Virus record (IMG/VR): IMGVR_UViG_3300025000_000128
Coordinates: 1 to 55,412 of that record
Origin: a virus
Lineage: Duplodnaviria; Caudoviricetes
Direction: 5' to 3' (one strand)
Length of the DNA stretch: 55,412 nucleotides
The notes under the pieces were generated by a model. The model ran no database searches. It was not told the origin of the DNA and worked only from the letters and a program-made list of their open reading frames with translations. Numbering within the stretch: position 1 is the stretch's first letter; each line of letters begins with the position of its first letter. Both the position numbers and the translations under genes were made by a program. Positions 16,481 to 40,656 of the stretch are shown piece by piece.

Positions 16481-18394
16481 ATGCTAAAAATTAATGATTT
16501 CGTAAAGGTCACTGGTTTTTATGTCAAGAATGACAACGACATCTTCATTGTAGATAATCAATATTCCAATGGAGAATACTGCTTAAAGAAAGTCACCTTA
16601 TCCGGTACTCAGTCCAAAACAAAATATTCTATTCTCTTTTTAAAAGCTAAACATTTTGCAGATCCCACGTTAACAATTGAAGTCATTCCAAATGTTGCAG
16701 GATTAAAACAAGCTAAGAAAGAAGTAAATGATTTCCTAAAAGGTATCACAGCAGAAGAAAAGGTTTTCTCCTTTGTTGATGCAATCGGTACTGATGTAGA
16801 AAAAGGAACTTTCCTTAAAGTCATTAAATCATTTGGTATTACTTCTAGCATGTACAGTGTTCCAAAGGGTACAATTTACGAAATAACCTCTACATACAAT
16901 GGTAACTACAATCTTAACATGGTAGGTAAAAGAGGAGAGAAATTAAGCACGACAGGAGCAAATGGCTGTAATAAAGTTATTCTAACATTCTCTGCTAAAA
17001 GTATTGCAGGATTATTCTCTGATGGCGATATAGTCAAGGTTGAACGGATCGAAAGCACAAAAGGAGAAATTGCTAATACTGAAACCACTGAAACTATAGA
17101 AAATGTAGAAGTCATTATACCTGCTAAAGTTATAACAGCTTCAGAAATTGAAGAAGAAATTGCACCTTATGACGAATACCGTGAACAACTTGTAAATAAA
17201 ATCATGGTCAATCTAGATCATGTTGCTATCAATGGAGATATTGAAGAATTAACCACACCAGAACTAGAAGCAATCATTACTAGAATTAATTCTGCAATTG
17301 CCAATCAAATAATATCTATAACAATTGATACTGAAAACTATGCAATCATAACAACCGGAAATGGCTCTTATAAATGCAATTATGCAAAAGACGAATACTT
17401 CAGCAATGAGTATTACATTGAAGAAATAAAAATTGATCATAGGGTTTATGGGTTAAATAGTTTTGTACCTTACATAGAAGAAGCGAAACAACCTATAACA
17501 GAAACCTCTATAACAGCAGTCGAACTAGTTGCACCAATTATCCCTGTACAAAACATTAATCTTATCAATCCTATCAATGAAGCACTAGCACAACGATCAA
17601 AAGAAAACATGAGTTTTTCAAGTTACACTCCAAATTCCGCAACAATGGAATACAATCAAGAAATAACAGAAGTTTCCAAAGCAATCAATTCTGCTAAATC
17701 TAAAGTATCACCTGAAGCGCAAATCAAACTTGATAACCTTCTCTTGTCCTATTCTTCAAATTATGCAAATTGGATTAATAAACGCAATGCAAATGGTGCA
17801 AGTCATGTTAGTTCATTCATTTCTGGCCCATCTAACTATAACATGAGCAAACATAACAAATACTTAAATCGTGAAGGAAAACTATGGGAAGAATATGAGC
17901 AGTTTAAAAATATTCAAAGTCGTATCAATGCAATTGTTGCCGGAGATAAAATCATAAAATCCAATGATGTAAATGCTATTGATAAGTTAAAAGAAAAACT
18001 TGAAAAAGCTTTAGAGGAACATGCAGGATATAAAGTATATAATTCCAACGCTAAAAAGGAAGGAAAACCGTCTCTTCCTGCTTATGTTCTACAAAATAGC
18101 AATGGTAGGATAAAAGGCATTAAAGACAGAATTGCACACCTTGAACGGCTATTACAGCAGGAGTCAAAAGAAATTATAATCGAGTCAGAATCAACTCTAT
18201 CTAATGGAATTAAAATAGTTGATAATGTAGAAGCACATAGACTACAAATATTCTTTAATGGGAAACCATCAGCAGAAATTAGAACACAACTTAAAAAGAA
18301 TGGATTTAGATGGACACCAACAATTGAAGCATGGCAGTCTTACAGGAGCGACAAAGCAAGTAAAAAAGCTTTAGAAATTGTTTCTAAAATTTGA
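16481..18394 (+). CDS. polyvalent-type protein; C-terminal half resembles DUF3560/large-polyvalent-protein-associated regions
   Basis: IKSNDVNAIDKLKEKL, LQNSNGRIKGIKDRI, RLQIFFNGKPSAEIRTQLKKNGFRWTPTIEAWQ. Confidence 0.65.
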   Translation: MLKINDFVKVTGFYVKNDNDIFIVDNQYSNGEYCLKKVTLSGTQSKTKYSILFLKAKHFADPTLTIEVIPNVAGLKQAKKEVNDFLKGITAEEKVFSFVDAIGTDVEKGTFLKVIKSFGITSSMYSVPKGTIYEITSTYNGNYNLNMVGKRGEKLSTTGANGCNKVILTFSAKSIAGLFSDGDIVKVERIESTKGEIANTETTETIENVEVIIPAKVITASEIEEEIAPYDEYREQLVNKIMVNLDHVAINGDIEELTTPELEAIITRINSAIANQIISITIDTENYAIITTGNGSYKCNYAKDEYFSNEYYIEEIKIDHRVYGLNSFVPYIEEAKQPITETSITAVELVAPIIPVQNINLINPINEALAQRSKENMSFSSYTPNSATMEYNQEITEVSKAINSAKSKVSPEAQIKLDNLLLSYSSNYANWINKRNANGASHVSSFISGPSNYNMSKHNKYLNREGKLWEEYEQFKNIQSRINAIVAGDKIIKSNDVNAIDKLKEKLEKALEEHAGYKVYNSNAKKEGKPSLPAYVLQNSNGRIKGIKDRIAHLERLLQQESKEIIIESESTLSNGIKIVDNVEAHRLQIFFNGKPSAEIRTQLKKNGFRWTPTIEAWQSYRSDKASKKALEIVSKI

Positions 18395-19155: not shown

Positions 19156-19185
19156 TTGACAACATTCTAATTTATATGGTATACT
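19156..19185 (+). promoter_or_regulatory. sigmaA promoter
   Basis: TTGACA-18-TATACT, extended TG. Confidence 0.65.
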
Positions 19186-19634: not shown

Positions 19635-19638
19635 AATA

Positions 19639-27731: not shown

Positions 27732-28037
27732 ATGAGAAAATTACTCAATACATTTTCAGAACTAAAGCCAAATATCTTTCAACTCATTGCACTAAATCAA
27801 AAGGGAGATTACGCCAATATAAATTTAAATACCGGAATGATTCTTTATTCTAAACGTCAAGATAACTGGCTTCCCGCCCAAAACAAAATCAGTATTCCAG
27901 AATTTGAAGAATGTATGGCTAATAATCCAAAACTATGGTTGTGTAAAGAATTTATTGTATTTAGAAATACTCATGTTGAGGTGTATAATGATTATGTTGA
28001 TAGAGTAAATAAAATGGAAATAATCTTTAAAGACTAG
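27732..28037 (+). CDS. hypothetical protein
   Basis: 101 aa, RBS, terminator AGACTAGT..ACTAGTCT. Confidence 0.75.
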   Translation: MRKLLNTFSELKPNIFQLIALNQKGDYANINLNTGMILYSKRQDNWLPAQNKISIPEFEECMANNPKLWLCKEFIVFRNTHVEVYNDYVDRVNKMEIIFKD

Positions 28038-28328
28038 TATTAACTAGTCTTTTTCTTTGTTTAAAAATAAAATTATGCCAATCATTCAACCCGATCAACT
28101 AATTTTCCCTTTTCAATCCTTCACAAACCAAAAACACTGGCACATAAACAGCCCTTCTTGCCATTAGATTGCATTACCCTTTATATTCTTACCTTAACAC
28201 GTTTTTAACGTCTCAGAATCAAAATAGGGTTAATTGTGGGCCAAAGATCCAATTATAACCTTGAATTGTTTGTAAAATCACTAAAATAAAATAGGACTTA
28301 ATAAACGCAAAAATAATTGTTTTGCCTA

Positions 28329-28998: not shown

Positions 28999-29123
28999 AA
29001 TCCCTTCAGTTTATTCATTATTACAATTTAATCATAACAATTGCTTTAAACTTGCATAACAAAATTAAAATGCAGGTAGTTGTAATTTAATGTTAAATTG
29101 TATAAACTTAGATTGAAGGGATT
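28999..29123 (+). other. long nested hairpin with ATAACA at the apical loop
   Basis: AATCCCTTCAGT/ATTGAAGGGATT, TACAATTTAA/TTAAATTGTA, ACTTGCAT/ATGCAGGT. Confidence 0.6.
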
Positions 29124-29204
29124 AATTTTCCGCAAAGTGTGAACTTTTATAACAATTTAAGTTTAGACCTTGGGTAAAATTTAAGAATGAAAGAGGTTAT
29201 AATT

Positions 29205-29459
29205 ATGAACATGTATGCAATTGTCAAGGTTTTTAACACTGGTAAAATGGAGATTCAACAAACCACAATTGGTACTAAGGAATTTGCAGAATCTCAAATG
29301 GAAACATGTTTGATTGCCGATGAATCTAACCTATGGAAAAAGTATATTGAAGAATCTATACATCGAAACACTAACCCCAGTGTATGGATTGAGGCTTTAG
29401 AAAAATATGAAAAACTATGTGTCGAGTACAAAATTTGTCAAATTGGAGTTATTCTCTAA
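29205..29459 (+). CDS. hypothetical protein
   Basis: AGAGG RBS before 29205. Confidence 0.7.
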   Translation: MNMYAIVKVFNTGKMEIQQTTIGTKEFAESQMETCLIADESNLWKKYIEESIHRNTNPSVWIEALEKYEKLCVEYKICQIGVIL

Positions 29460-29604
29460 CCCAATCAAAAAGACATTTTATCGTATTTTAAGACTGTATA
29501 AACATTTGATTATGCAGTCTTTCAGACTTCGAAGTTTTACTAAACTATGTACTAAATCAAAAATAATTAGTATATAGTTTAGTAAAATAAAAGGAGTGGT
29601 TATT

Positions 29605-29976
29605 ATGTTAAGCAAAAAGGAATTCGATGCATTCAGAAAAGAAGCTGAACTAGCTCTAGTGGAATTATCCAAAAAGTACAATGTCAATGTTGAGGCTGGA
29701 AAGATCAAGTATACATCAGATAGCTTTAACCTTGATTTAAAAGTCACTAAAAAGGAAGTCAATGGGAAGTCTTTTGAACAGTCTGAATTCGAGAAGTATT
29801 GTATCTTGTATGGTTTTCAGCCGGAAGATTATAACAAAACGTTTACCACTAGCGGAAGAAAGTTTAAGTTAATTGGATTTAAAACAAGTGCTAGAACAAT
29901 GCCTGTATTGGCTCAAAGTGAAGACGGTAAAAATTACAAGTTTGGCACTGATGTAAAAAGGTTATTAAGTGCTTAA
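29605..29976 (+). CDS. hypothetical protein
   Basis: AAGGAG RBS; 123 aa. Confidence 0.8.
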   Translation: MLSKKEFDAFRKEAELALVELSKKYNVNVEAGKIKYTSDSFNLDLKVTKKEVNGKSFEQSEFEKYCILYGFQPEDYNKTFTTSGRKFKLIGFKTSARTMPVLAQSEDGKNYKFGTDVKRLLSA

Positions 29977-30071
29977 CCCTTAAAGTTTTTTCGTTATTAG
30001 CAACAAAAACAAAATAACAGACATAAAAATTTGTTGCTAGTGTCGAGTAAATTAGAAGGAGTGAAGTTAAA

Positions 30072-31274
30072 ATGGCAAGAAGAAAACCAACCACAATGTC
30101 ATGGAACATCAAGCAAATTAACACCATGATCAATAAGGGAACAATCCTCTTTACTCATCCCCTTCAACGTCCTACGGGCCAATGGGAGCAAGCAGACAAA
30201 TCCTTATTAGTGGATTCTCTTTTAACCCTCTATTGTCCAGATTGTTTCGCCATCAAAGAAAAGACAGAGAATGGTAATACATACAGCATCATTGATGGCC
30301 TTCAAAGGTTGTCTACTATTCATGAACTTCTAGCAGACAAATTGACTATGACAGAATTAGAAGACTTTTGCCTAGATGCTACCGGAAATGAAGTCTATAA
30401 CATTTCAGGTAAAACATGGTCACAATTTCCCGAAGAAGTTCAAAACGAAATAATGGGTTATACTTTAGGTCTTAAAGTCTTCGAAATCGAAGAGGGAGAC
30501 GATGAAGAGTCAATCATTGAAGAAATCTTTTACCGCCTTAATAACGGTAAAGGAATGTCACTAGAGCATAAAGCACTAGTAAAAGCTAGTCATAAGGTGC
30601 AAAAATTTGTTCACAGAATCGCAACAGAACACAAACTATTTACTAACATTGCAAAGTATTCTGAAAAAGCGGTAAAGAAATCTGATATTCCAATGACCAT
30701 TATGCAAGCTATTCTCCTTATCTCAAGACTAGATTATCCTAGCCTAGCAGCAAAGGACATTGAACTGGTATTCTCGAAAAACGAAATAACAGATCAAGTC
30801 CTAACACTTGTGGAAAATTCCTTTGATCTTATTGCAAAAGCATTTCCAGAACAGCACAAATTCGTTACAAAAATAAATATTGTGTCAATGGCATATCTTT
30901 TCGCGAATAGTTTAAACCATGACCAAACGATTGTTAATCTTTTGAGATATGTTAATCAAGAGGTTAAACCAGGAGACTCCTACAAAGGATATACAGGCTC
31001 CGGTAATGTCAAGAAGGAAAAGACTATTAACAGACTTAAAGGAATTCTCAAATTGTGTAAAGTTGATGATATTGGATTACCAGTGATGGAAGAAGCTCAA
31101 GAGGTTGAAGAAGTAATTGATCAAGAGGAAATCATTGAAGAACAATGGGAACAGCCTCTACAAGCTGAAAACCTTGAATCTTCTATAACAGATGATCTTG
31201 TAGAGTTCAGCGATGAGGCAGGAAATCTAGAAGACGCTAAAGCAATTTTGAGTATTGTAAACAATGTTGCTTGA
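30072..31274 (+). CDS. DUF262 (ParB/GmrS-like) domain protein with acidic tail
   Basis: LQRPTGQW..LVDSLL..IIDGLQRLSTI..EIFYRLNNG. Confidence 0.85.
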   Translation: MARRKPTTMSWNIKQINTMINKGTILFTHPLQRPTGQWEQADKSLLVDSLLTLYCPDCFAIKEKTENGNTYSIIDGLQRLSTIHELLADKLTMTELEDFCLDATGNEVYNISGKTWSQFPEEVQNEIMGYTLGLKVFEIEEGDDEESIIEEIFYRLNNGKGMSLEHKALVKASHKVQKFVHRIATEHKLFTNIAKYSEKAVKKSDIPMTIMQAILLISRLDYPSLAAKDIELVFSKNEITDQVLTLVENSFDLIAKAFPEQHKFVTKINIVSMAYLFANSLNHDQTIVNLLRYVNQEVKPGDSYKGYTGSGNVKKEKTINRLKGILKLCKVDDIGLPVMEEAQEVEEVIDQEEIIEEQWEQPLQAENLESSITDDLVEFSDEAGNLEDAKAILSIVNNVA

Positions 31275-31376
31275 ATTGTAAAATAATTATTTAGGTAATT
31301 AACCGAAAACCTATATTAAATTTATCTCTAAAATGGTATACTATTTATAACAAATGAATGAAGGAGCGTGTTGGAA

Positions 31377-31610
31377 ATGGATCAAACAATGTATCAACAA
31401 CTATTAGCTTTAGGTATGCAGGAATCAGAATTAGATAATCATTGCTCTGATTTGTACGTTTTGAAAAATGCAATTTCCACAAAGTTCGTTAATGAATACG
31501 AGTTCAAAATGAACGTAACAACATTTAGAAGCGAACTAGAAGACAGACAAATTTGGTACGAAATACCTTTTGCTTATACAGAGTATCATACTAAAGGTAT
31601 AGTCTATTAA
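31377..31610 (+). CDS. hypothetical protein
   Basis: LDNHCSDLYV..WYEIPFAY; AAGGAG RBS. Confidence 0.75.
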   Translation: MDQTMYQQLLALGMQESELDNHCSDLYVLKNAISTKFVNEYEFKMNVTTFRSELEDRQIWYEIPFAYTEYHTKGIVY

Positions 31611-31631
31611 AACCCAACATTGATGACATTT

Positions 31632-31695
31632 TGCAGAGTGACTAGGGACTATAACGGTCTCTAGGTAATGCACAAGGAAGGTCACAAGTCCTTCC
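31632..31695 (+). ncRNA. twister ribozyme, P5-type circular permutation
   Basis: UGCA-GAGUG, P1 CUAGGGAC/GUCUCUAG, UAA-UGCA, P4 GGAAG/CUUCC with loop GUCACAAGUC (CAC pairs GUG); predicted cut U31666/A31667. Confidence 0.82.
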
Positions 31696-31725
31696 AATTG
31701 CTAATTTTTAAGGGGGAAAATACAT

Positions 31726-34173
31726 ATGTCTAAATCTCTTCAAACTTTAAAAACCAATATTACTAAAGGTTCGCAAAGACTTTCCAAAGCTACTATTAAA
31801 AACATTGTCAACGCAGGAGAATTTGAAAAGATTGAACTTGCTTATTCTTACGATGGAAGAGAAGTCCACAAAGGAACTTTGATCGAAAATCCTGTTGAAT
31901 GGTTCAATAAGGAATATGACTCTATTGATGTTCGACTCTACAAAGTAGAAAAAGGTTTAGTTTTAATCCATTTACATTTTCATTCTAATTTATGGTATGG
32001 TCTACATATTGATCTAAACAAAAACTATGAAACAACCAATGCACCAGCAGGAACAAAGGAGGAAAATAAAATTCAAGATGTTCAAGTAACGGAAGCCAAA
32101 AACTATCTTGATACCATGCAAGCAAAATTCAAAACTGGCGAAGGAACAGCAGAAGAACTAAGAGCTTATTATACATACCTAATTGAAAATGTTGATTCTG
32201 TAAAGGCTGTAATTCTTGACATGCTGAACAATTCTGAAAAGCACAAAAGGAAACGTGTAAATACTAAAGCTGAATTAACTCAAGATTACTATAACAACAT
32301 GGTCGAAGCTCTTGTATATCATGTTCAAGATGCGTTATCATATGAAATTGACTTTACTGACATTAAAGGAGCAAGACAAAGAGCAATTAAGGCAATTCTT
32401 GATAATACCACTGATGAAATGATACAAGAACATTATATGAAGACTAAAGCAACGGACGAAAAATATGCAGAACAGCGAAAAGAATTAATCGAAGCAATCA
32501 AAAACCCTCAAACCTTAAAAGACTTCGAAAATGTTAGGTATTACCGCAAAGACAAAACCTTAACACTAGAAGAACAAGAACGCTATGACAGAGTATATTC
32601 TCTTGCTCAAATTGAAAAGAAAGTAAATCAAGAGCAAGAAAAAGCAGAAAAGGCATTATCTGTTGTCACTACTTCCGATCAATATACCATTATTGAAGAT
32701 ATTGACACAAGAGACAATTCTCAAATTTGGGTTGTAAAACTCAATAACAGAGTTGGCAAGGATGATTTTAATTATATCAGATCCCAAATTATGAAACCTA
32801 TTGACGGTTATTATTCACGGTTTAAAGGTGGCTTCTTGTTCAAGTATGATCCTAGTGCTAAACTTTTAGGAGAACAGGTAGAGCAACAGGAAGAACAAGT
32901 AAAAGAAGAAATAAAACATTCCGATAAACTCCGTAAGGTTGCCGATAATATGCAAAGCACAATTGACAGTAAAAGAGCAGACAGATTGACCAACACGGCA
33001 AGACGTGCAAGGATGGCAGCAGGGCAAGAAGAACAAGCAGAAAGCATGGAATTTATACAGGGAATTCTTCGCAATGTTGCAAATGCTATTGATAATCAAG
33101 AACTGACTTTCATTGATAAAATTGATTCTAGAGCACAAATTGACACATTAGAAAACATTTTAGTTCGTGCCAACTGGGAAAAGAAATCTGTTGAAAAGAT
33201 TGATTATAAAATTTGGCATGAATCCCCAATAACGGCAGACTATATCAAATACGCAGAAATCCCCTCTAGCAAAATTTCTTTATATCGTTTACAATCTATT
33301 ATTAATGAAATCAAAAATACTGATGGATTTAAACTCATTGCAAACAGATTGCAAAAACTTATTGACAGTGCAAAGCTGAAGCAAAAAGATATTCACCATG
33401 ACCCCTTGATTGACATTTCAGATTATGACTCTGAACTTGACAAAATCTATAAAAATACTGATGTTTTGAAGAATCAATACTTTGAAACAGCCATCGAAGA
33501 ACGCAGAAGATTGTCAAGAATGGGCATAGAATCAGTTGAAGAACTAAGAACATATCTAAGAGAATACTTCAATTATCGGACTGTAAAAAGCTCAATTGAT
33601 CCCACCGAACAGAAGATTAAAGAGTTGGAAAGAAAATTCAAGTTCGATCAAAAAGGCGATATTAATTTTACTCCTTCAAACATTGCCCTCCAAATGATTG
33701 AATTGGCTGACATATCCAATAACAGCAGAGTCCTTGAACCTTCAGCCGGAATCGGGAACATTGCAGACCAAATCAAAAAATTTACTCCTAATGTTGATGT
33801 TTGTGAACAAATGTATTCTTATTCTGAGTTATTGACTCTCAAGGGGTTTAATGTTGTTAGTTCTGATTTCTTGCAGTATGAAAATAACAATTATTATGAT
33901 TGTATTATTATGAATCCCCCATTTAGCCAAGAGCAGGAACACATTAAACATGCTTATAATTTGTTAAAAGTAGGTGGTAAACTCATTGCTATTACTTCAC
34001 CACACTGGACGTTTGCCAATGACAAATCATCAAAAGAATTCCGGCAATGGTTCGAGAATTTAAATGGTGAAATTGTGGAAGAATTAGAATCAGGAACTTT
34101 TGAGATGACGCAAGTTAGATCAAATATAATTATCATCAACAAAGACACTGAGACCATGCAAAAGGCTGTATAA
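31726..34173 (+). CDS. large polyvalent protein with C-terminal N6-adenine DNA methyltransferase
   Basis: VLEPSAGIGNI (motif I), IIMNPPF (motif IV); central DTRDNSQIWVVKL..GYYSRFKGGFLF region. Confidence 0.85.
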   Translation: MSKSLQTLKTNITKGSQRLSKATIKNIVNAGEFEKIELAYSYDGREVHKGTLIENPVEWFNKEYDSIDVRLYKVEKGLVLIHLHFHSNLWYGLHIDLNKNYETTNAPAGTKEENKIQDVQVTEAKNYLDTMQAKFKTGEGTAEELRAYYTYLIENVDSVKAVILDMLNNSEKHKRKRVNTKAELTQDYYNNMVEALVYHVQDALSYEIDFTDIKGARQRAIKAILDNTTDEMIQEHYMKTKATDEKYAEQRKELIEAIKNPQTLKDFENVRYYRKDKTLTLEEQERYDRVYSLAQIEKKVNQEQEKAEKALSVVTTSDQYTIIEDIDTRDNSQIWVVKLNNRVGKDDFNYIRSQIMKPIDGYYSRFKGGFLFKYDPSAKLLGEQVEQQEEQVKEEIKHSDKLRKVADNMQSTIDSKRADRLTNTARRARMAAGQEEQAESMEFIQGILRNVANAIDNQELTFIDKIDSRAQIDTLENILVRANWEKKSVEKIDYKIWHESPITADYIKYAEIPSSKISLYRLQSIINEIKNTDGFKLIANRLQKLIDSAKLKQKDIHHDPLIDISDYDSELDKIYKNTDVLKNQYFETAIEERRRLSRMGIESVEELRTYLREYFNYRTVKSSIDPTEQKIKELERKFKFDQKGDINFTPSNIALQMIELADISNNSRVLEPSAGIGNIADQIKKFTPNVDVCEQMYSYSELLTLKGFNVVSSDFLQYENNNYYDCIIMNPPFSQEQEHIKHAYNLLKVGGKLIAITSPHWTFANDKSSKEFRQWFENLNGEIVEELESGTFEMTQVRSNIIIINKDTETMQKAV

Positions 34174-34230
34174 GCTATAACATCCATGTTACAAGGGTTC
34201 TAGGGTATCCCTAGAAAATACCATTACTAT

Positions 34231-34422
34231 TTATCAAAATAATTATTTTTAAATTCACTCTATCAATACTTATCAAGTCTATGACAATGTGATACAATAA
34301 GTCATGGACTTGAAGCAACAAATAATTATTTTGATAATGCCTAAGACCCTGCAAACTATATAACAATCATAACAATAGGTTGCAGGTGTTTGGAGTTTAT
34401 CAAAGTAGATAAAGTATGATAG
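34231..34422 (+). other. nested inverted-repeat leader
   Basis: 34231-48/34320-37, 34273-85/34301-13, 34348-59/34375-86 (loop ATAACAATCATAACA), alternative 34260-74/34408-22. Confidence 0.65.
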
Positions 34423-34451
34423 ACTATATTTAATTAAGGAGGGTACATATT

Positions 34452-34889
34452 ATGTTAGAAATGAAATACGGTGCAATTGTCAAACATAATGACCAATTAG
34501 GGGAGTTAGTCACAGAAGATGGTAAATTCTATTTTCATCCTGTCAAATATGGTAATTACTATTGCTCAGACCTAACCGAAGCAACTGAAGAAAATATACA
34601 AGAAACTTCCCACGAAGAAAAGATTGAATATCTTAAACAGGAGTTCCCATGGGGAGAAATTATCAAAGTTCACACTATTGGTGAATATATCATTTTTGAA
34701 TATATTAGTGGTTATGACTTTAAAAACGAAGGGAACACAGTTATTATGTTTCATGCTTATATGAATTACAAAAATATTTCTAGGTCATATCATTCTCTAG
34801 ACTCTTGCTTGATCGGAACATTGGCACATAAATATGATGGAGCCAACAGCCAGGCAGCTACATTTTTCAAGCGCATGGTTAAAATGTAA
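34452..34889 (+). CDS. hypothetical protein
   Basis: 145 aa, AAGGAGG RBS. Confidence 0.8.
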   Translation: MLEMKYGAIVKHNDQLGELVTEDGKFYFHPVKYGNYYCSDLTEATEENIQETSHEEKIEYLKQEFPWGEIIKVHTIGEYIIFEYISGYDFKNEGNTVIMFHAYMNYKNISRSYHSLDSCLIGTLAHKYDGANSQAATFFKRMVKM

Positions 34890-34934
34890 TTCCATTCAAA
34901 TACGAATTTCAAATGAGTGAAAGGAAGTTTTAGA

Positions 34935-35126
34935 ATGAACATACATGATTTAACAAGACTATTAGATGGGGAAGAAATGGAAATATTGAATGGAACAGGT
35001 AGTATTTTAATTGACTTTGAGGCAAATATGTTTTTAGCGGTAGTCAATGGGAATTCTCTTAATCTTCATAAGACAATTGAAGAAGCAATAGAGGAAATTA
35101 AAGACTATAATGAAGAAGAAAATTAA
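34935..35126 (+). CDS. hypothetical acidic protein
   Basis: AAGGA RBS before 34935. Confidence 0.7.
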   Translation: MNIHDLTRLLDGEEMEILNGTGSILIDFEANMFLAVVNGNSLNLHKTIEEAIEEIKDYNEEEN

Positions 35127-35127
35127 T

Positions 35128-35194
35128 TGCAGAGTGGTAGAGCGTTATAACAATCACGCTCTATTAATGCACAAAGCAGGTCACAAGTCCTGCT
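35128..35194 (+). ncRNA. twister ribozyme, P5-type circular permutation (second copy)
   Basis: same core as 31632 with different stems: P1 UAGAGCGU/ACGCUCUA, P4 AGCAG/CUGCU; predicted cut U35165/A35166. Confidence 0.82.
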
Positions 35195-35223
35195 AAGATG
35201 CTAAATATTGAGGAGAGTGTATT

Positions 35224-35385
35224 ATGATTAATGAAGAAAATGAAAAGGCAATCAATGAGATTATGAAACATTTTAAACTGCAAGAAAAAGACAGATTATT
35301 TGTTACTATAATGATCACAGGAACTTATGAAACAGGGAAGCAAGACGCAAAAAAGGAAATGCTTGAATTTTTACAGACCAAATAA
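35224..35385 (+). CDS. hypothetical protein (53 aa)
   Basis: GAGGAG RBS; MINEENEKAINE.. Confidence 0.65.
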   Translation: MINEENEKAINEIMKHFKLQEKDRLFVTIMITGTYETGKQDAKKEMLEFLQTK

Positions 35386-35486
35386 AACTTACATTTGCTG
35401 GTAGTATATGGTAGAATATCTATAACACAAAGTCAAATTTCGATCCACGATTTTAAAATTATGATGGAAGAAAGAGGTAATGTAAA

Positions 35487-35798
35487 ATGAATAAAGGTAC
35501 ATTAATTTTTGACAATGGCGGAGGATTAACCTTACAACTCAATAACAGTTACGCTCACTGGTATCAAAACATGAACCAAGCAGCAGAAGATTTGAAAGTA
35601 TATATTAAGGAAGGAAATACAGAAGGTTGGGAAGGTCATGAAGAAAGTGAAATGGAATTAAATCCTCAGTATGATCAAATTCAAAATGGAGGATATAGAG
35701 TTTTCTCCATAGAGGATATTATTGCAATGTCAAAAGATGAATACACCGATACCGGATGGGGAAATATTAGAGATTTTTGCATAGCATTTAATAATTAA
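35487..35798 (+). CDS. hypothetical protein
   Basis: 103 aa, RBS. Confidence 0.75.
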   Translation: MNKGTLIFDNGGGLTLQLNNSYAHWYQNMNQAAEDLKVYIKEGNTEGWEGHEESEMELNPQYDQIQNGGYRVFSIEDIIAMSKDEYTDTGWGNIRDFCIAFNN

Positions 35799-35893
35799 TT
35801 GTATCTGGAGAATAGGCAATAACAGCAAACTCTATAACAGTGGTGCTATTGCCTTCCTTTCGAGATAAAGTTGATTAAAGGAGGTTTTTGGTT

Positions 35894-36076
35894 ATGGATA
35901 AAGATTTAAGAGATATTATTTCGGATTATATTTATTCACAAGTTAAAGTAGATACAGAAGAGAATCGCGAAAAAATAACAGAGGAAGTTTATCAATCATT
36001 GTCTAAAGAAATTAGTGTTCTTAATGTAAAAATACCTTTTCTTATTGGTCAACGTATCAAGCAAATAAATCAATAA
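35894..36076 (+). CDS. hypothetical protein
   Basis: AAGGAGG RBS. Confidence 0.65.
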   Translation: MDKDLRDIISDYIYSQVKVDTEENREKITEEVYQSLSKEISVLNVKIPFLIGQRIKQINQ

Positions 36077-36097
36077 TTTGAATGGAGTGAATAAATT

Positions 36098-36358
36098 ATG
36101 ACTAATGCATGGAATGATGTTGACACCACTATGTTAAAAGAAAAGGAAGTTATTAAACTCATGAATGCCAAAGGTTATCAAACGTCAACTTTTCAAGAAT
36201 TTGAAAGAGACCATAAGCACATGGTTAATGATTCAGTACGACAAGTTGCGACATGTAAACATAATCTAGATGTAATGAAGAGTCCAAGGAATATTGGAAA
36301 GTTCTATACTGTAAAAATGTCTAATGGTTTACAGGTTAGAACATGGGAAGTAAGATAG
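36098..36358 (+). CDS. hypothetical protein
   Basis: 86 aa, GGAG RBS. Confidence 0.7.
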   Translation: MTNAWNDVDTTMLKEKEVIKLMNAKGYQTSTFQEFERDHKHMVNDSVRQVATCKHNLDVMKSPRNIGKFYTVKMSNGLQVRTWEVR

Positions 36359-36370
36359 GGCCACAAGTGC

Positions 36371-36437
36371 CCTCTAAACCTTCTAAACTCTATAATACAC
36401 ACAAAACTACACTTGATGAGTTTAGAAGGTTTAGAGG
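36371..36437. repeat. 20-bp perfect inverted repeat
   Basis: CCTCTAAACCTTCTAAACTC-N27-GAGTTTAGAAGGTTTAGAGG. Confidence 0.85.
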
Positions 36438-36477
36438 ATGTTTGAATCCTAAAATAAAATAAAAGGAGGCCACAATC

Positions 36478-36585
36478 ATGAGCAAATTAAAATTAATCCA
36501 AGAATTCAAAAATATCTGCGACACCCACCATATTCCATTTACTTTTGAAAACTTTGAAAAACTTATCGCTCATATTTCCAAATAA
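36478..36585 (+). CDS. 35-aa peptide
   Basis: AAGGAGG RBS; MSKLKLIQEFKNICDTHHIPFTFENFEKLIAHISK. Confidence 0.55.
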   Translation: MSKLKLIQEFKNICDTHHIPFTFENFEKLIAHISK

Positions 36586-36646
36586 TTTTACATATTTTAT
36601 ACTATTACTAAATCTAAAAATAAAATTATGAAAGAAGGAATTAAAA

Positions 36647-36898
36647 ATGGCTAAGATTAAAGGAACTAAGAAATTATTAACTCTCCCTGTATCAAAACTT
36701 AATACTCTGTACTTAGGTAAGGAAATGGTTTATAGGTTCTATCCCGGCAACATTATCCATATTGCTTATCTAGGAGGTTTAGATCCTATGCCTTATTGTG
36801 AAGTACGACTAAGAATTTGGAATAACAAAACTGTTACCAAAATCATGAAGCTTTCTGATGTTGTTCTAGTATCTTCTGGAAAAGTTAAAGTAGCTTAA
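36647..36898 (+). CDS. hypothetical protein
   Basis: 83 aa, RBS. Confidence 0.7.
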   Translation: MAKIKGTKKLLTLPVSKLNTLYLGKEMVYRFYPGNIIHIAYLGGLDPMPYCEVRLRIWNNKTVTKIMKLSDVVLVSSGKVKVA

Positions 36899-37044
36899 TT
36901 TGTGTAACTTATGGATACATGGTATAATGCAAATATAATTATTACAAAATGTATTGTACCATGTAAAAATTAAGGGATATAAGTTATCAAGTCAATATCT
37001 CATTTATGCTATAACAATGAAGGTTAGGAGGTTGTCGAGTTATT

Positions 37045-37302
37045 ATGTCAAATGTATTAAAATCTAATCATGATATCATATCTCAAGAAGCATGTCAGAA
37101 AGGTTTTAATTACACTGGAGAGAATCTATTTACGTTCGAGCAATGGAGACAAAGAGGGTATGCTGTAGTAAAAGGTCAAAAAGCATTCCTTAAACTTAGA
37201 TTATGGTCTTATGGAGAGAATAGGAGATTCATTCCTGCTCAATTGTTTTCAAGAGAGCAAGTCACTAAGGTAAATTGTGGTATAATGTCAATATCAGCAT
37301 AA
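37045..37302 (+). CDS. ArdC-N-like ssDNA-binding (anti-restriction-type) protein
   Basis: FTFEQWRQRGYAVVKGQKA..LW..FIPAQLFSREQV. Confidence 0.65.
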   Translation: MSNVLKSNHDIISQEACQKGFNYTGENLFTFEQWRQRGYAVVKGQKAFLKLRLWSYGENRRFIPAQLFSREQVTKVNCGIMSISA

Positions 37303-37357
37303 CAATTTAGTATCTGACGTTGACGATATTTCAATTAAGTTATTAGGAGGAATTATT

Positions 37358-37590
37358 ATGATGCAAGATGAATACAAAAAAGATTTCTTTAGTCAAAAGT
37401 TTTGTTGGGTATTAGATGGTAGAACATTTTGGCAACCTAAAATGCAAAGGAATACTTAATTAGGATGCAAAAACGAACAGAACAATTTGCTGTAGGTTAT
37501 TTGGTATTATTAAAAGATGAATATTTTAGATTAAAAGAGCAGAAAGAACAGACAAATCAATTAGAGGAATTATTAAAGGATTCTATATAA
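37358..37590 (+). pseudogene. frameshifted small gene (~77 aa)
   Basis: AGGAGG RBS; one extra A in CCTAAAATG joins two frames. Confidence 0.5.
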
Positions 37591-37705
37591 GCTCTTTAGC
37601 GTTGATACCTATGTCATTTAAACTATAACAGCGAGGCTATAATGGTACAGAGGTATTTATACTAAAGTCCTTGTGGACTTAAATTAAGTGAAAGAAGGAA
37701 TTATT

Positions 37706-38155
37706 ATGTCAATTAAATTACCTATTGTGAATGTTAAAGACATTAATTGGAATAATCATGATTCATCTTTTAATATATTCCAAGATATTATGGTAGGAGA
37801 CATTGCGGTAATAGAAAACAAATCTGAATGTATTCTCCCTTTAGATGATGGTGAATATTGTGTTACTATTGATAATGGTAATGTATTTATTGAGGAAGCA
37901 TTTTCGTATGAAGAATGCAAAATATTGTTTGGAGAAGAATTTGGTAAATCGTATGTCTACTTTATTTCCCTGTTAACTGAAAATTGTTATGATAATTATG
38001 TAGAAGGCAAATATATTGAAGGTGACGGCTTACCTGTTTGTGTAGATTTTTCTGTTGCCAAAGGATTTGATAATATTGAAGATGCTCATAAATACGCCAA
38101 AGAAAAAGCGAATTTAAAATTAGGTGAATACGCTATTCATGGATTTTATATTTGA
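37706..38155 (+). CDS. hypothetical protein
   Basis: GAAGGA RBS before 37706. Confidence 0.75.
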   Translation: MSIKLPIVNVKDINWNNHDSSFNIFQDIMVGDIAVIENKSECILPLDDGEYCVTIDNGNVFIEEAFSYEECKILFGEEFGKSYVYFISLLTENCYDNYVEGKYIEGDGLPVCVDFSVAKGFDNIEDAHKYAKEKANLKLGEYAIHGFYI

Positions 38156-38264
38156 TCCATTAAAACTATTATTTTATGCCATATTATGGATTTCAAAACC
38201 CTTATAACAGTAGGGTTTCAGAGGTTGACTGTTTAAAATTATTTGAAGAAAGAAGGAAATTAAA

Positions 38265-38849
38265 ATGTTTGAATGGTTAGTAGAAAAAGGAGTAGAGGTC
38301 AACGGAAAATGGGGAGAAATTAAAGAATATAATCCAGAAACTAAAAAATTCATTATTGAGTATGTAGATGATGAAATTTTAGAAGAAGTAAATATTTTTA
38401 ATACGGAGGTAATATACAACATTGATTGGTTTGAAAATTGGCAAAAGAATCTAATGACAGGATTAATTAGAAATGAAGGCAAAATAACAATCCATGTATT
38501 GTCAACATCAAGTGGAGATAATTGGTCTTTAGAAATATATAGACATAAAACATTGTTACCAACTCCAGAATATCAAGAGCAAGTTATTTTAACTAATTAT
38601 GTAATTGTAGTATGTGGTGAGGTAAAAGGGAACGTATTTACTAGACAAATTAAAATATATTCTGGATGTGCAATTGATGAAGAAAAAGAATTTAGCAAAT
38701 GGATTGAAGAACAGATTGAAAAAGTATCAGAATTCAATAATACCGAGCATTGGCAAGTTCCATGTAGCACTATAGTATTTTCAGATTGTTTATGTACTAA
38801 AGAAGAGAGTGATTTACTGCACGAGATGTTTAATGATGTAAGAGGATAA
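38265..38849 (+). CDS. hypothetical protein
   Basis: 194 aa, RBS. Confidence 0.8.
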   Translation: MFEWLVEKGVEVNGKWGEIKEYNPETKKFIIEYVDDEILEEVNIFNTEVIYNIDWFENWQKNLMTGLIRNEGKITIHVLSTSSGDNWSLEIYRHKTLLPTPEYQEQVILTNYVIVVCGEVKGNVFTRQIKIYSGCAIDEEKEFSKWIEEQIEKVSEFNNTEHWQVPCSTIVFSDCLCTKEESDLLHEMFNDVRG

Positions 38850-38890
38850 ATAGCAAGCTTTATCGGAAATATGAGAGGAGAGAAAATACT

Positions 38891-39142
38891 ATGGAAAACG
38901 AAATCATGAAAAATTTAACTGATACTGAATTAATTGTACTATGTAATGATATTTATGACTGGGATCATGGAAACGGAACTTTAAACCAAGATAGCGAACT
39001 AAGGAAATTTCATATAAAGCATGAAAAATTGTTTTATGCAGTCCAATATCTTAGAGATGATATTATAAATGAAGCTTATAATAGATTTCATAAGGTTGCA
39101 AAAACTTTAATTGTCAGTAAAGCAGGATTATTTATCAAGTAA
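38891..39142 (+). CDS. hypothetical protein
   Basis: 83 aa, GAGGAG RBS. Confidence 0.75.
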   Translation: MENEIMKNLTDTELIVLCNDIYDWDHGNGTLNQDSELRKFHIKHEKLFYAVQYLRDDIINEAYNRFHKVAKTLIVSKAGLFIK

Positions 39143-39143
39143 C

Positions 39144-39216
39144 ATTGGTCTGAGCCAGTATAAAACACCTTAAGCTCAGAGCGTTAGTAGGGTTTATAAC
39201 AATCCTGCTAGGTGGT
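39144..39216 (+). ncRNA. pistol ribozyme
   Basis: P1 AUUGG/CCAGU with loop UCUGAG pairing CUCAGA, AUAAAA linker, ACC-UUAAG, GCGU, P3 UAGUAGGG/UCCUGCUA, GGU-GGU; predicted cut G39212/U39213. Confidence 0.9.
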
Positions 39217-39243
39217 ATAACAATAACAGGGAGGATGATTTTA

Positions 39244-39513
39244 ATGATAGATTTAGGCAGAATTCAAATTCCAACAGAAGATAATTTAATTCTTCAAAAA
39301 GAGATGTATGACTTAATAGTTGAAGAATTGAGTGGGAAAGAAGTTAAGGAAGATATCAAGATAGAATGGAGAGGTAATAATTTAGTGTGTCATAAAACTA
39401 AACAAGGGGTTATTAAAATCAGACAATATGATGAAGATTTTAAAAAGTATGCTCATTGGAGATTTACCAAAAGGAAAGAGTTTAATTTTGATGAGTACAA
39501 ACGAACCATATAG
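39244..39513 (+). CDS. hypothetical protein
   Basis: GGGAGG RBS immediately after the pistol ribozyme. Confidence 0.75.
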   Translation: MIDLGRIQIPTEDNLILQKEMYDLIVEELSGKEVKEDIKIEWRGNNLVCHKTKQGVIKIRQYDEDFKKYAHWRFTKRKEFNFDEYKRTI

Positions 39514-39553
39514 AAAGTAAAACTTATGGGAATTAAGAAAGGAATGATTAATT

Positions 39554-39721
39554 ATGGCATCTAAACAAATAGCGGAAATTAAAGCTTATGAGTATGATAC
39601 CAAAGAAGAAATGGAAAGAGAAATTTATGCCTTGCGAGATTCTAAAGAATGGAAAGTTCAAAATACTTATGAATTACATGGAAAATGGAGAGCAGAATAT
39701 TTTAAAATTAATCTGTACTAG
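39554..39721 (+). CDS. hypothetical protein (55 aa)
   Basis: AAAGGA RBS; MASKQIAEIKAYEY.. Confidence 0.65.
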   Translation: MASKQIAEIKAYEYDTKEEMEREIYALRDSKEWKVQNTYELHGKWRAEYFKINLY

Positions 39722-39839
39722 TGATTTAAGCCCATATTAGCTATAACAGCAGACACTTATAACAGCATGGGTTGTGACGTTGTGGGCTTATATTATAGCA
39801 TTGATTGCTATTAAATAAATTTATTGGAGGTAAATTATT

Positions 39840-40263
39840 ATGAAAATTAAAGTAGATTTATTTTGTTTAAAGGACATTAAGGACATTTCATTCGATTGCA
39901 CAAGTGGCAATATGTATTCGGTAATTCTTGATACTAATAGTTCATATTTTGGCAGTCATATTAAACATTTAGTCACAAGATTAAATGAGGGTTACTTCAA
40001 AGTAAATGCTCCTTGGAGGTATATACCTAAACATCATGAATTTGAGTTTATGCAAGTGAAATCATGTAGTCAACATTGTTAAAGATGAACACATTAATGA
40101 CCATATTGAGTATAACAAATTGTTTAGATTCTGAAGAGCATTATTTGTAGACGGAGAATGTCTTAATACGGGATACCTAAATAGTGAAGAGGTTAAAAAA
40201 TGGAAGGATAAAATTAAAGCAATGAATATTGATTCTTCCATTGCATCAGAAAAATATCATTAA
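39840..40263 (+). pseudogene. disrupted hypothetical gene
   Basis: ORF ends at 40082; protein-like frame continues after a 1-nt shift with an in-frame TGA at 40132 (..YNKLFRF*RALFVDGECLNTGYL..). Confidence 0.45.
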
Positions 40264-40386
40264 TTTGTAATATTTCAAAAATTACAAAACCCCCGAAACC
40301 CTTACTACACTAGGTTTTTATAATTCAATATTTGGCATGAAATGTTATTTTTATTTGGCAGGATAGAAAGGAAAATGAGAATAAAA

Positions 40387-40518
40387 ATGGAAATAAAACA
40401 TTCTTGTTGGAATTGTCTTAATTTAGATTGTGATCATGTAGAATATAAATCCTGTACCAAAGGACACAAACTTAAATTTATCTTTAATATCAATGATTGT
40501 TCAGATTGGAATGGTTAA
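40387..40518 (+). CDS. small Cys-rich peptide (43 aa)
   Basis: CWNC..C..CTKGH..CSDW. Confidence 0.5.
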   Translation: MEIKHSCWNCLNLDCDHVEYKSCTKGHKLKFIFNINDCSDWNG

Positions 40519-40656
40519 TCTAAAATCTCAATTCTTGTATAACAGCAAGCAGTATTTATTGCAACTTTATTTTATATTAATCATAAACTCTATTGTAATT
40601 TATCCCAAATTAGAATATAATGTAACCAAGAAATAAATATTGAAGGAGTGATACGT

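What the first reader, a model, noticed from the sequence alone, without database searches (positions are those of the whole stretch)
29050..40549. One loop word, (U)AUAAC(A), on three ribozymes and ~10 unrelated hairpins: candidate phage RNA-tagging/processing system
Seen: across the early region, on the transcribed strand, (T)ATAAC(A) recurs in or at the loops of intergenic stems whose arms share no sequence: 29050-77, 29142-63, 29997-30040, 34348-86 (two copies), 35829-41, 37000-20, 37594-37667, 38196-218, 39740-50, 39756-72 and 40534-49. It also fills the P1 loops of both twisters (31650, 35146) and the P3 loop of the pistol (39195). Established: these ribozyme loops are normally variable, so the same word in all three points to selection. 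Inference: the loop is the docking site of a phage or host RNA-binding factor (antitermination, stabilisation, nuclease targeting or control of ribozyme folding) acting on the long early transcripts. I do not recognise this as a described system.
Basis: partly seen in the sequence, partly recalled or inferred. Interest (0 to 1): 0.85.

Follow-up and report, generated by a model that had tools for sequence, protein, structure and literature searches.

The report
Strand-polar word marking a phage gene block
An eight-letter word, (T/A)ATAACA(G/A), is packed on one strand of one block of small accessory genes in this phage and its relatives, and every self-cleaving ribozyme there shows it in an enlarged end loop; this points to an undescribed signal whose reader is still unknown.

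Summary
The word is real. TATAACA occurs 20 times on + and 0 on - in 29050-40549, against 2-3 expected, and is mostly intergenic. The core is WATAACAR. The same word fills one 10-20 kb same-strand zone in at least ten other phage contigs whose cargo genes are unrelated.

The ribozyme claim holds strongly. All 11 twister or pistol ribozymes found in such zones carry ATAAC in the end loop, against 1 of 82 twister-like ribozymes elsewhere.

The hairpin-loop claim is only partly right. Loop preference is not significant in the window and two relatives (8/51 vs 102/905). It is modest in 530 pooled sites (18.5% vs 12.2%).

New finding: outside the zone the word is depleted on the zone's DNA strand whichever way the genes run.

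No reader was found and no RNA data exist. Best reading is a single-strand tag read on the block's transcripts (0.4). A polar DNA-level signal is close behind (0.3). It is not a promoter, a nut site, the SPbeta SPBRE operator, a PeSL or an attC site. I found no description in print.

The parts
341..2968 (-). YonO-like single-chain two-barrel RNA polymerase gene; it places the phage among SPbeta-like phages
   Evidence: phrog_8308 E 2.4e-285; tblastn 50% identity to SPbeta YonO and 61% to a Clostridium phage record
15388..15394 (+). first TATAACA copy, in the divergent junction between the - and + gene blocks
   Evidence: in SPbeta the matching yonP/yonR junction is the packaging start (passages of bioRxiv 10.1101/2021.11.22.469490)
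17131..17843 (+). five TATAACA copies (17131, 17317, 17494, 17509, 17837) inside the 640-aa primase-like ORF 16472-18394
   Evidence: 5 seen vs 0.61 expected by synonymous shuffling, 0 of 1000 shuffles reach 5
28029..28052 (+). only terminator-like hairpin on + just upstream of the zone; no other + terminator-like site up to 44 kb
29034..40544 (+). the word-rich zone: 20 TATAACA and 34 ATAACA on +, 0 and 2 on -
29056..29061 (+).
29148..29154 (+). TATAACA, intergenic, flanked by AACTT/AAGTT arms
30014..30019 (+). ATAACA in the loop of a 9-bp stem (29997-30040), upstream of the DUF262 gene
30072..31274 (+). DUF262 (GmrSD_N, ParB-like) gene; one of only two proteins shared by the zones of the window, G001/G002 and G003
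29830..32296 (+). four coding copies of TATAACA (29830, 30396, 31184, 32290), in reading frames 0 or 2 only
   Evidence: 4 seen vs 1.58 expected
31346..31352 (+). TATAACA 3 nt after a TGnTATACT -10-like box and 18-24 nt before a start codon; the arrangement is kept in relative G002
31632..31693 (+). twister-P5 ribozyme 1; P1 end loop holds TATAACG (31650)
   Evidence: Rfam 51.7 bits, gathering 37.6
31726..34173 (+). 815-aa DNA methyltransferase fusion gene
34176..34182 (+). TATAACA 2 nt after the methyltransferase stop codon
34359..34374 (+). TATAACA plus ATAACA, both in one large loop of stem 34348-86
35128..35192 (+). twister-P5 ribozyme 2; P1 end loop TTATAACAATCA (35146)
   Evidence: Rfam 57.7 bits
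35421..35427 (+). TATAACA 3 nt after a TGGTAGAAT -10-like box
35819..35839 (+). ATAACA and TATAACA in the loop of stem GGCAATA/TATTGCC
37010..37016 (+). TATAACA 28 nt before the start at 37045, in a weak loop
37624..37630 (+). TATAACA followed after 7 nt by TATAAT; not in a loop
38203..38209 (+). TATAACA in the loop of a 7-bp stem AAACCC(T)/(A)GGGTTT; similarity to relative G002 begins 2 nt before the word and the stem is not kept there
38891..39142 (+). 83-aa ORF of unknown family, shared with the G003 zone
39144..39217 (+). pistol ribozyme; P3 end loop holds TATAACA (39195)
   Evidence: Rfam 53.8 bits, gathering 34.5
39216..39228 (+). TATAACA overlapping ATAACA, between the pistol 3' end and the GGGAGG Shine-Dalgarno sequence
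39742..39764 (+). two TATAACAGCA copies 16 nt apart
40111..40117 (+). TATAACA at the start of a 560-nt stretch without an ORF of 60 aa or more (40082-40648)
40538..40544 (+). last TATAACA of the zone, in the loop of CTTG/CAAG

Best explanation
WATAACAR is a functional cis-signal kept across a phage lineage and read on one strand in single-stranded form. My leading reading is that it works as RNA. The long transcripts of one hypervariable accessory block carry many copies in 5' leaders, next to or just after Shine-Dalgarno sequences, inside codons, and in the end loops of the twister and pistol ribozymes that cut these transcripts. The block holds a DNA methyltransferase, a DUF262 protein, a weak ArdC-like hit and many small ORFs.

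A sequence-specific trans-acting reader would bind these copies. It is most likely an RNA-binding protein, less likely a small RNA with a CUGUUAU seed or a nuclease. It would treat the whole block as one regulon, controlling stability, translation, processing or read-through.

The ribozyme loops were enlarged from tetraloops to display the word. As I recall the ribozyme literature, cleavage is just 3' of that hairpin, so the upstream product would end in a word-bearing hairpin.

Shown: the enrichment, the strand bias, conservation across unrelated cargo, the loop remodelling, and a modest preference for unpaired positions.
For: Window zone: 20 on + vs 0 on -, 2-3 expected. 16 of 20 copies are intergenic in 27% intergenic sequence.

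Relatives: the same word is the top locally enriched strand-specific 7-mer in the window, G002 and G003, although their zones share almost no DNA or proteins. Further zones: L112 33/2, L120 29/4, L123 25/0, L150 35/8, L148 15/0; L292 42/1 vs 4.9 expected; G053 36/3 and G056 33/1.

Ribozymes: 11 of 11 in zones carry ATAAC in the twister P1 or pistol P3 end loop. In an IMG/VR survey of 85 twister-like ribozymes the figures are 3/3 in word-rich loci and 1/82 elsewhere (Fisher 4e-5). Twister-P5 was found in only 1 of 49 YonO relatives, and that one has a zone.

Placement: copies are concentrated -90 to -1 of start codons. 14 abut an SD as ATAACAGGA and 15 lie in SD-ATG spacers. Overlapping tandem copies occur. 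These placements do not fit a promoter.

Accessibility: unpaired 0.689 vs 0.651 (p 4e-4); in loops 98/530 vs 129/1060 (p 5e-4).
Against: Outside the zone ATAACA is depleted on the zone's DNA strand in genes of both orientations. G050: 7 vs 26 in + genes and 7 vs 23 in - genes. G051: 16/39 and 9/26. G003: 22/43 and 12/30. G001 - genes: 5/30. Window - genes: 0/8. Each ranks 1-2 of 30 composition-matched hexamers. G053 gives 8 vs 26 and G056 12 vs 23 (hand count).

In genes of the opposite orientation the depleted copies would be antisense and should not be in mRNA. This needs far read-through transcription or a DNA-level reader.

Loop preference is weak and absent in two relatives taken alone. 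At one homologous site the stem is not kept. No reader was found. No gene family within 10 kb tracks word richness. No small protein has an RNA-binding family hit. No cluster of the complementary word lies in non-coding DNA. Five copies inside a primase-like gene look more like a DNA-level feature. There are no RNA data at all.
Confidence: 0.4

Rival explanations
1. A polar DNA-level signal. The word is read on one DNA strand by a machine that travels the genome in one direction: replisome or primase, packaging motor, or an AddAB/RecBCD-like helicase-nuclease. The zone is an island of reversed, very dense polarity next to the divergent junction. In the rest of the genome the same orientation is avoided. 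Under this view copies sit in leaders, spacers, permissive codons and ribozyme loops simply because those positions tolerate them.
For: There is absolute-strand asymmetry outside the zone in six genomes, independent of gene direction and specific to this hexamer among 30 of equal composition. Each complete genome has exactly one zone (G050, G051; G056). In G050 the zone starts at the strand-switch junction. In SPbeta the matching junction is the pac or genome-opening site with one-way headful packaging (passages). Five copies lie inside a primase-like gene. One 146-codon ORF of L292 holds 8 copies. The word is conserved in phages sharing no nearby gene, including a complete genome without a YonO match. 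That fits a universal machine as reader.
Against: It does not explain why 11 of 11 ribozymes have enlarged loops carrying the word, when intergenic density is only about one per 145 nt. It does not explain why ribozymes gather in word-rich zones. A host Chi-like role is not supported. In the one MAG that holds a zone-bearing contig, ATAACAG is 760 vs 480 for the reversed word, about the composition expectation and including the phage copies. As I recall, Chi acts when met from its 3' side; on that rule the orientation relative to an SPbeta-type pac end is the inactive one (inference). No replication or packaging direction was measured here.
Confidence: 0.3
3. An operator for a DNA-binding repressor or activator, the counterpart of the SPbeta repeated element (SPBRE) bound by MrpR.
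For: SPbeta, a relative, has a repeated sense-oriented intergenic element at about 10 promoters, bound by MrpR (PMC10516654, abstract and passages). I recovered it as an AAAATATGTATATAA-type word abutting SDs.
Against: The word is different. Only about 8 nt are conserved instead of 15-25 with promoter boxes. Density is 20-70 per zone rather than 10 per genome. Many copies are coding. The ribozyme-loop rule and the genome-wide strand polarity are not expected for a duplex operator. I did not search for an MrpR homologue.
Confidence: 0.05
4. Cassette-exchange sites. The word marks the borders of mobile gene cassettes and is used by a single-strand-specific recombinase or by microhomology. The nearest analogues would be T4-type PeSLs or integron attC sites.
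For: The zone is hypervariable even between phages whose YonO is 98% identical. At window 38203 similarity to G002 starts 2 nt before the word in both genomes. A homologous gene (34452-34889) sits inside the zone in the window and outside it in G002.
Against: Only one clean boundary case was found. Many copies lie inside genes, up to 8 in one ORF. Recombination in a ribozyme loop would join unmatched P1 halves. No paired inverse word as in attC: TGTTAT on + occurs only 2 times in the zone. No recombinase was identified.
Confidence: 0.07

Closest known systems
CsrA/RsmA-type regulons and their sponge RNAs (recalled, not tested here)
   Same: A short single-stranded RNA word occurs in many copies in leaders, overlaps or abuts Shine-Dalgarno sequences, and is partly displayed in hairpin loops whose stems differ.
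   Different: The word is different (GGA there). No reader protein is known here. The word is confined to one phage gene block, sits in ribozyme loops, and shows genome-wide DNA-strand polarity.
Chi, KOPS and other polar 'architecture' sequences of bacterial chromosomes (recalled)
   Same: A 7-8-nt word whose orientation is biased over the whole replicon and flips at defined points, independent of gene direction.
   Different: Those words are spread along the replicon and over-represented in the host. Here the word is under-represented outside one very dense 10-20 kb island, is enriched in intergenic leaders and ribozyme loops, and is not clearly over-represented in a candidate host MAG.
SPBRE/MrpR operator of phage SPbeta (PMC10516654, abstract and passages read)
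   Same: A repeated, sense-oriented intergenic element in a related phage, often just upstream of the SD.
   Different: SPBRE is a 15-bp or longer promoter-like duplex element at about 10 sites with another sequence. Here the word is 8 nt, has 20-70 copies, and also lies in coding sequence and RNA loops.
PeSL promoter/terminator cassettes of T4-type phages (PMC4122927, abstract read; PMC2839356, search listing only)
   Same: Short conserved intergenic elements with stem-loops in hyperplastic regions full of small variable genes; proposed points of genetic exchange.
   Different: PeSLs are composite promoter-terminator sequences long enough for homologous recombination. Here only 8 nt are shared, stems are not conserved, and terminator-like sites are not enriched (5 found vs 5.3 expected).
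Lambda nut (boxA/boxB) and other antitermination RNA signals (recalled)
   Same: A signal in nascent early RNA that a factor reads; partly presented in a hairpin loop; placed promoter-proximal in long early operons.
   Different: nut sites number one or two per operon with a conserved stem and loop. Here there are tens of copies, most not in hairpins, with no conserved stem.
T4 RegB (GGAG) and RegA target sites in early mRNAs (recalled)
   Same: A phage factor acts on a short word placed at translation-initiation regions of one temporal class of mRNAs.
   Different: No such nuclease or repressor was identified here. The word lies beside the SD rather than in it, and is also placed in ribozyme loops.

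Membership tests
Twister-P5 and pistol self-cleaving ribozymes (Rfam RF02684, RF02679) | Covariance-model score above the curated gathering score over the full model | tested here: met
   57.7 and 51.7 bits (cut-off 37.6) and 53.8 bits (cut-off 34.5), full-length matches. Cleavage itself was not tested.
Lambda-type nut/boxB antitermination hairpin | Conserved stem and loop, one or two per operon, paired with a boxA-like linear element | tested here: not met
   No flank is conserved beyond WATAACAR. There are 20 copies in 11.5 kb. Only about 16-25% of copies are in hairpin loops.
SPBRE/MrpR operator | The 15-bp SPBRE sequence at promoter regions | tested here: not met
   The SPBRE recovered from SPbeta upstream regions is AAAATATGTATATAA-like. 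The window's word is different and shorter.
SPBRE/MrpR operator | Presence of an MrpR (YopR) homologue that binds it | not tested
   No search for MrpR was made. The window is an estimated 37% of the genome.
Phage-polymerase or minimal late-type promoter | Fixed position relative to transcript starts and a leader that includes the SD | tested here: not met
   Position is spread from -90 to -1. 15 copies lie in SD-ATG spacers and 14 abut the SD. Tandem overlapping copies occur. Transcript starts themselves could not be measured.
T4-type PeSL | Composite early promoter plus terminator stem-loop, conserved over tens of bases | tested here: not met
   Only 8 nt are conserved. Terminator-like sites: 5 vs 5.3 expected in 28-44 kb, one of them on +.
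Integron attC | Paired inverse-core and core sites forming an imperfect hairpin at each cassette border | tested here: not met
   The complementary word TGTTAT occurs only 2 times on + in the zone, against 34 ATAACA. Many copies are inside genes.
Chi-like polar sequence | Replicon-wide orientation bias independent of gene direction | tested here: met
   Ranks 1-2 of 30 matched hexamers in both gene orientations in G050, G051 and G003. The same direction of bias is seen in G053 and G056.
Chi-like polar sequence | Over-representation in the host chromosome | tested here: inconclusive
   In the MAG holding L292, ATAACAG is 415+345 vs 255+225 for the reversed word, phage copies included. The host link rests on metagenome binning only.
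Chi-like polar sequence | Recognition by the host AddAB/RecBCD enzyme | not testable with these tools
   Needs biochemistry or genetics.
CsrA-like multi-site RNA tag | Short word in leaders, at SDs and in loops, in many copies per RNA | tested here: met
CsrA-like multi-site RNA tag | An identified RNA-binding reader | tested here: not met
   No RNA-binding family among the zone's proteins. No co-varying gene within 10 kb.

The most novel reading that the evidence does not exclude
A whole lineage of large Firmicutes-type phages uses one 8-nt word as a 'zone code'. The same strand-specific word tags the transcripts of the hypervariable accessory (probably anti-defence) block, forces self-cleaving ribozymes to display it in remodelled loops, and is read at the DNA level as a polarity signal that must be kept off that strand elsewhere. 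One reader of single-stranded nucleic acid would then couple RNA processing and expression of the first-acting genes to a directional DNA transaction such as replication, packaging or entry. This would be the first case of a protein-or-RNA-read tag built into natural twister and pistol ribozymes, and it would give those ribozymes a testable biological role.
Probability: 0.2. Interest if true: 0.92.

Novelty: categorically new. Interest (0 to 1): 0.8.

Why it matters
As far as I recall, the biological role of bacterial and phage twister and pistol ribozymes is unknown. Here 11 of 11 sit in one kind of gene block and all display the same word right beside their cleavage site. Ribozymes elsewhere carry plain tetraloops.

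The word also defines a recognisable, hypervariable island of small genes in many uncultured large phages. The island holds methyltransferases, DUF262 proteins and anti-restriction-like hits. It could therefore be used to find accessory or anti-defence islands from sequence alone.

The genome-wide avoidance of the word on one strand is a second, independent sign that something potent reads it.

Tried and rejected
CHANCE OR COMPOSITION: rejected.

YonO PROMOTER. SPbeta YonO has one late start site (PMC5467207, passages). The 1.7-kb region upstream of yonK has no TATAACA. The complete genome G051 is word-rich without a YonO match.

SIGMA-A REGISTER. -10-like hexamers fall at no common offset. 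The promoter scan is uninformative in this AT-rich DNA (109 vs 87 expected).

COMPLEMENTARY SMALL RNA. Clusters of TGTTAT are either the antisense of the zone or lie in coding sequence.

CO-VARYING READER GENE. None was found within 10 kb of DUF262 homologues. DUF262 itself also occurs in many word-poor loci.

SMALL ZONE PROTEINS. No informative Pfam or PHROG hit, apart from weak ArdC-N and anti-restriction hits for 37045-37302.

CLOSE RELATIVES BY DNA. No megablast match in the phage collection. The methyltransferase gave no relative in IMG/VR.

tRNA GENES: none in the window.

RNA EVIDENCE. No RNA holder was listed; the four listed runs are DNA runs of one groundwater study.

NOT PURSUED. 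I considered pairing of the word with a tRNA-Asn anticodon loop or a 16S rRNA segment from memory only. I did not test it, because I hold no such sequence from a tool.

LITERATURE. I searched TATAACA; twister + pistol + prophage + self-cleaving; ATAACAG + bacteriophage + intergenic; and twister ribozyme / phage genomes / polycistronic. None returned a description of this word or of conserved ribozyme loops. Supplements were not opened and may hold relevant tables, for example the SPBRE logo or YonO start-site sequences.

LIMITS. The gene calls in my scripts are crude (ORF plus SD rule). At least two G003 sites marked 'coding' are visibly upstream of starts. Some of the 11 ribozymes are likely orthologues; window twister 2 and L140 twister 1 share their P1 arms. 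Zone limits and the hand counts are mine.

Full report
WHAT THE WINDOW IS. The window is a whole IMG/VR virus record of 55,412 bases, estimated 37% complete, at 29% G+C. ORF 341-2968 (-) is a YonO-type single-chain RNA polymerase (phrog_8308). It is 50% identical to SPbeta YonO and 61% to a Clostridium phage record. The phage is therefore an SPbeta-like phage of a low-G+C Gram-positive host.

Genes run on the - strand up to about 15.4 kb. This block holds the polymerase, a helicase with a LAGLIDADG insert and several homing endonucleases. From there to the end genes run on the + strand. The stretch named in the finding holds a DUF262/GmrSD_N protein, an 815-aa DNA methyltransferase fusion, one weak ArdC-like hit and many small ORFs without family. 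The only + strand terminator-like site nearby lies at 28029-28052.

THE OBSERVATION. Rfam confirms two twister-P5 ribozymes and one pistol. Over the whole window and both strands TATAAC is not enriched (61 vs 60.9). In 29050-40549, however, TATAACA is 20 on + and 0 on -, against 2.1-2.9 expected under Markov orders 1-3. It has the highest z-score among 7-mers seen at least 6 times. 20 of the 21 TATAAC copies are followed by A.

Alignment of the sites shows conservation only at YTATAACAR. Pooled over relatives the core is WATAACAR. 16 of 20 copies are intergenic, in a stretch that is 27% intergenic by a crude gene call. Nearly every intergenic gap of 60 nt or more between 29 and 40.6 kb has at least one copy. 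Five further copies lie inside the primase-like ORF, with 0.61 expected by synonymous shuffling and 0 of 1000 shuffles reaching 5. Other + strand ORFs hold 1 copy against 3.3 expected.

ARE THE COPIES IN HAIRPIN LOOPS? Only partly. MFE folds put some copies in clear loops: 34359, 35833, 37010, 38203, 40538 and the ribozymes. Others are not: 35421, 37624, 39758, 40111. A stem-score test gives 9.3 vs 6.9 (p 0.03), with 7 of 20 at or above the 90th percentile of the background.

Against composition-matched 7-mers in the window, G002 and G003, the loop rate is 8/51 vs 102/905 (p 0.22), and the two relatives show none. With 530 ATAACA sites from 11 zones and 1060 matched hexamers the preference is real but small: 18.5% vs 12.2% in loops with a stem of 4 or more (OR 1.64, p 5e-4), and mean unpaired probability 0.689 vs 0.651 (p 4e-4). 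At the one clearly homologous leader, the word and what follows are conserved while the upstream arm of the stem is not.

RELATIVES. YonO homologues led to 80 IMG/VR loci. Two contigs whose YonO is 98% identical (G001, G002), and one at 61% (G003), carry the same word in one same-strand cluster: 13 in 9 kb and 18 in 10 kb. Yet these clusters share almost no DNA. They share only two proteins, DUF262 and an 83-aa ORF. An unbiased scan ranks TATAACA/ATAACAG first in the window, G002 and G003, but not in G004.

Searching with a DUF262 alignment gave 48 more loci. About a dozen of them have very large sense-strand excesses, for example L112 33/2, L123 25/0 (ATAACA 71/4) and L150 ATAACAG 52/1. A contig binned with a Clostridium MAG has 42 on + and 1 on -, against 4.9 expected. 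Eight of these copies lie in one 146-codon ORF, the last overlapping its stop codon.

Complete genomes have exactly one zone: G050 at 135-155 kb, G051 at 130-147 kb, and G056 at 119-136 kb. In G050 the zone begins at the strand-switch junction. G051 gave no YonO match.

RIBOZYME LOOPS. This is the strongest result. The three window ribozymes carry the word in inserted end loops, where the Rfam consensus has 'gaaa' (twister P1) and 'uUcuu' (pistol P3). The G003 twister has CATAACAG there. Four more ribozymes in word-rich loci carry TATAACA, AATAACA, TATAACA plus ATAACA, and CTATAACAG in the same loops. These are the L117 and L123 pistols and two L140 twisters.

I then scanned IMG/VR with a pattern for this twister subgroup. 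Of 85 distinct matches with a P1 stem of 5 or more, 3 of 3 in word-rich loci have ATAAC in the loop, against 1 of 82 elsewhere (Fisher 4e-5). The usual loops are GAAA, GTAA, TTCG and GTGA. That makes 11 of 11 in zones, although some are probably orthologues. Twister-P5 was present in only 1 of 49 YonO relatives, and that one has a zone.

From what I recall of the ribozyme literature, twister cleaves just 3' of P1 and pistol just 3' of P3. The word-bearing hairpin would then end the upstream product. I did not test this.

WHERE THE WORD SITS RELATIVE TO GENES. Over 430 crude gene starts in 12 zones, the word is concentrated from -90 to -1 with no fixed distance. 14 copies abut the SD as ATAACAGGA and 15 lie between SD and start codon. 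About half of the copies in L123 and L150 are in coding sequence, only in the two frames that avoid TAA. Gaps of 20 nt or less between copies are 47 against 28 expected. These placements argue against a promoter. So do the lack of a common register to -10-like boxes and the SPbeta precedent of a single YonO promoter (PMC5467207, passages).

A SECOND LAYER: DNA-STRAND POLARITY. Outside the zone, ATAACA is depleted on the DNA strand that carries the zone's copies, in genes of both orientations. The figures (zone strand vs other strand) are: G050, 7 vs 26 in + genes and 7 vs 23 in - genes; G051, 16 vs 39 and 9 vs 26; G003, 22 vs 43 and 12 vs 30; G001 - genes, 5 vs 30; window - genes, 0 vs 8. In each case the ratio ranks first or second of 30 hexamers of identical composition.

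Hand counts give 8 vs 26 (G053) and 12 vs 23 (G056). The window's own + genes outside the zone do not show the depletion (11 vs 4), but that count includes the primase cluster, which lies between the junction and the zone.

In SPbeta the junction between yonP and yonR is the genome-opening (pac) site, with one-way headful packaging (bioRxiv 10.1101/2021.11.22.469490, passages). The polarity may therefore relate to a directional DNA process starting there. That is an inference.

In the MAG that holds L292, the word is 760 against 480 for its reversed control, phage copies included. This gives no good support for a host Chi-like word.

WHAT IT IS NOT. It is not the SPbeta SPBRE, which I recovered as an AAAATATGTATATAA-type promoter-like element. 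It is not a nut-type hairpin. It is not a PeSL (abstract of PMC4122927; terminator-like sites 5 vs 5.3 expected). It is not an attC site, since it has no paired inverse word.

WEIGHING. Three things favour an RNA-level reader: the ribozyme-loop rule, the gathering of ribozymes in zones, and the placement at translation-initiation regions. The absolute-strand avoidance and the primase-gene cluster favour a DNA-level reader. Each reading leaves the other's best evidence unexplained.

I put the RNA tag first (0.4) and a polar DNA signal second (0.3). A reader of single-stranded nucleic acid that sees both forms is the boldest option still open (0.2; it overlaps both). Promoter, operator and cassette-site readings are minor. 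No reader was identified, and no RNA data exist for this phage.

NOVELTY. Supplementary files were not opened.

Noticed in passing
IMG/VR loci L208, L221, L230, L246, L175: Some viral contigs carry 3 to 12 or more twister-like ribozymes in the same orientation, about one per kilobase, with ordinary tetraloops. These are arrays of ribozymes between small genes.
   Followed up: partly
L128, L135 and other DUF262 loci of 38-43% G+C: These loci lack ATAACA excess. Instead they have sense-strand excess of GGCAGCAG or GGCAGCGG (27 vs 6 and 29 vs 11 for GGCAGC), several copies directly upstream of Shine-Dalgarno sequences. This may be an analogous word in another lineage or a coding bias.
   Followed up: no
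L292:4071-4511: One 146-codon ORF holds eight ATAACAG copies, the last overlapping its TAA stop. That is a very strong nucleotide-level constraint on a protein-coding gene.
   Followed up: partly
window 7416-10244 (-): The 942-aa helicase-like ORF has a LAGLIDADG homing-endonuclease match in its middle (residues 408-579), suggesting an intein. The - block also holds HNH and GIY-YIG endonuclease genes at 2985-3983, 11974-12729 and 13359-14135.
   Followed up: no
L007:13176-13273 and L008:13234-13324: A skipping-rope RNA (RF02924) lies just downstream of the YonO gene in two relatives. SPbeta has a 1.7-kb gene-free stretch between yonN and yonK, where the YonO start site and an unannotated RNA were reported.
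   Followed up: no
L124:1202-1429 (-): A HEARO RNA (RF02033, 146.8 bits) lies next to a word-rich zone.
   Followed up: no
window 40082-40648: A 560-nt stretch without an ORF of 60 aa or more at the end of the zone, holding the last two TATAACA copies. From 40.7 kb on the variants are TATAACT (40756, 41349), and strong sigma-A-like promoter matches appear at 41756 and 42316.
   Followed up: no
window 16001-20000: GC skew is negative here (-0.07, -0.13) although the genes are on +, unlike the rest of the + block. The cumulative skew minimum of the window falls at 18-20 kb, beside the primase-like gene that holds five copies of the word.
   Followed up: no
G004 (20-35 kb): This relative lacks the word zone. 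Its top locally enriched 7-mers are TGTGGTA and GTGGTAT, which look like extended -10 promoter boxes.
   Followed up: no
window 54521-55246 (+): A second DNA methyltransferase gene (phrog_56) lies at the window's end. Two tRNA genes lie inside the word-rich locus L150.
   Followed up: no
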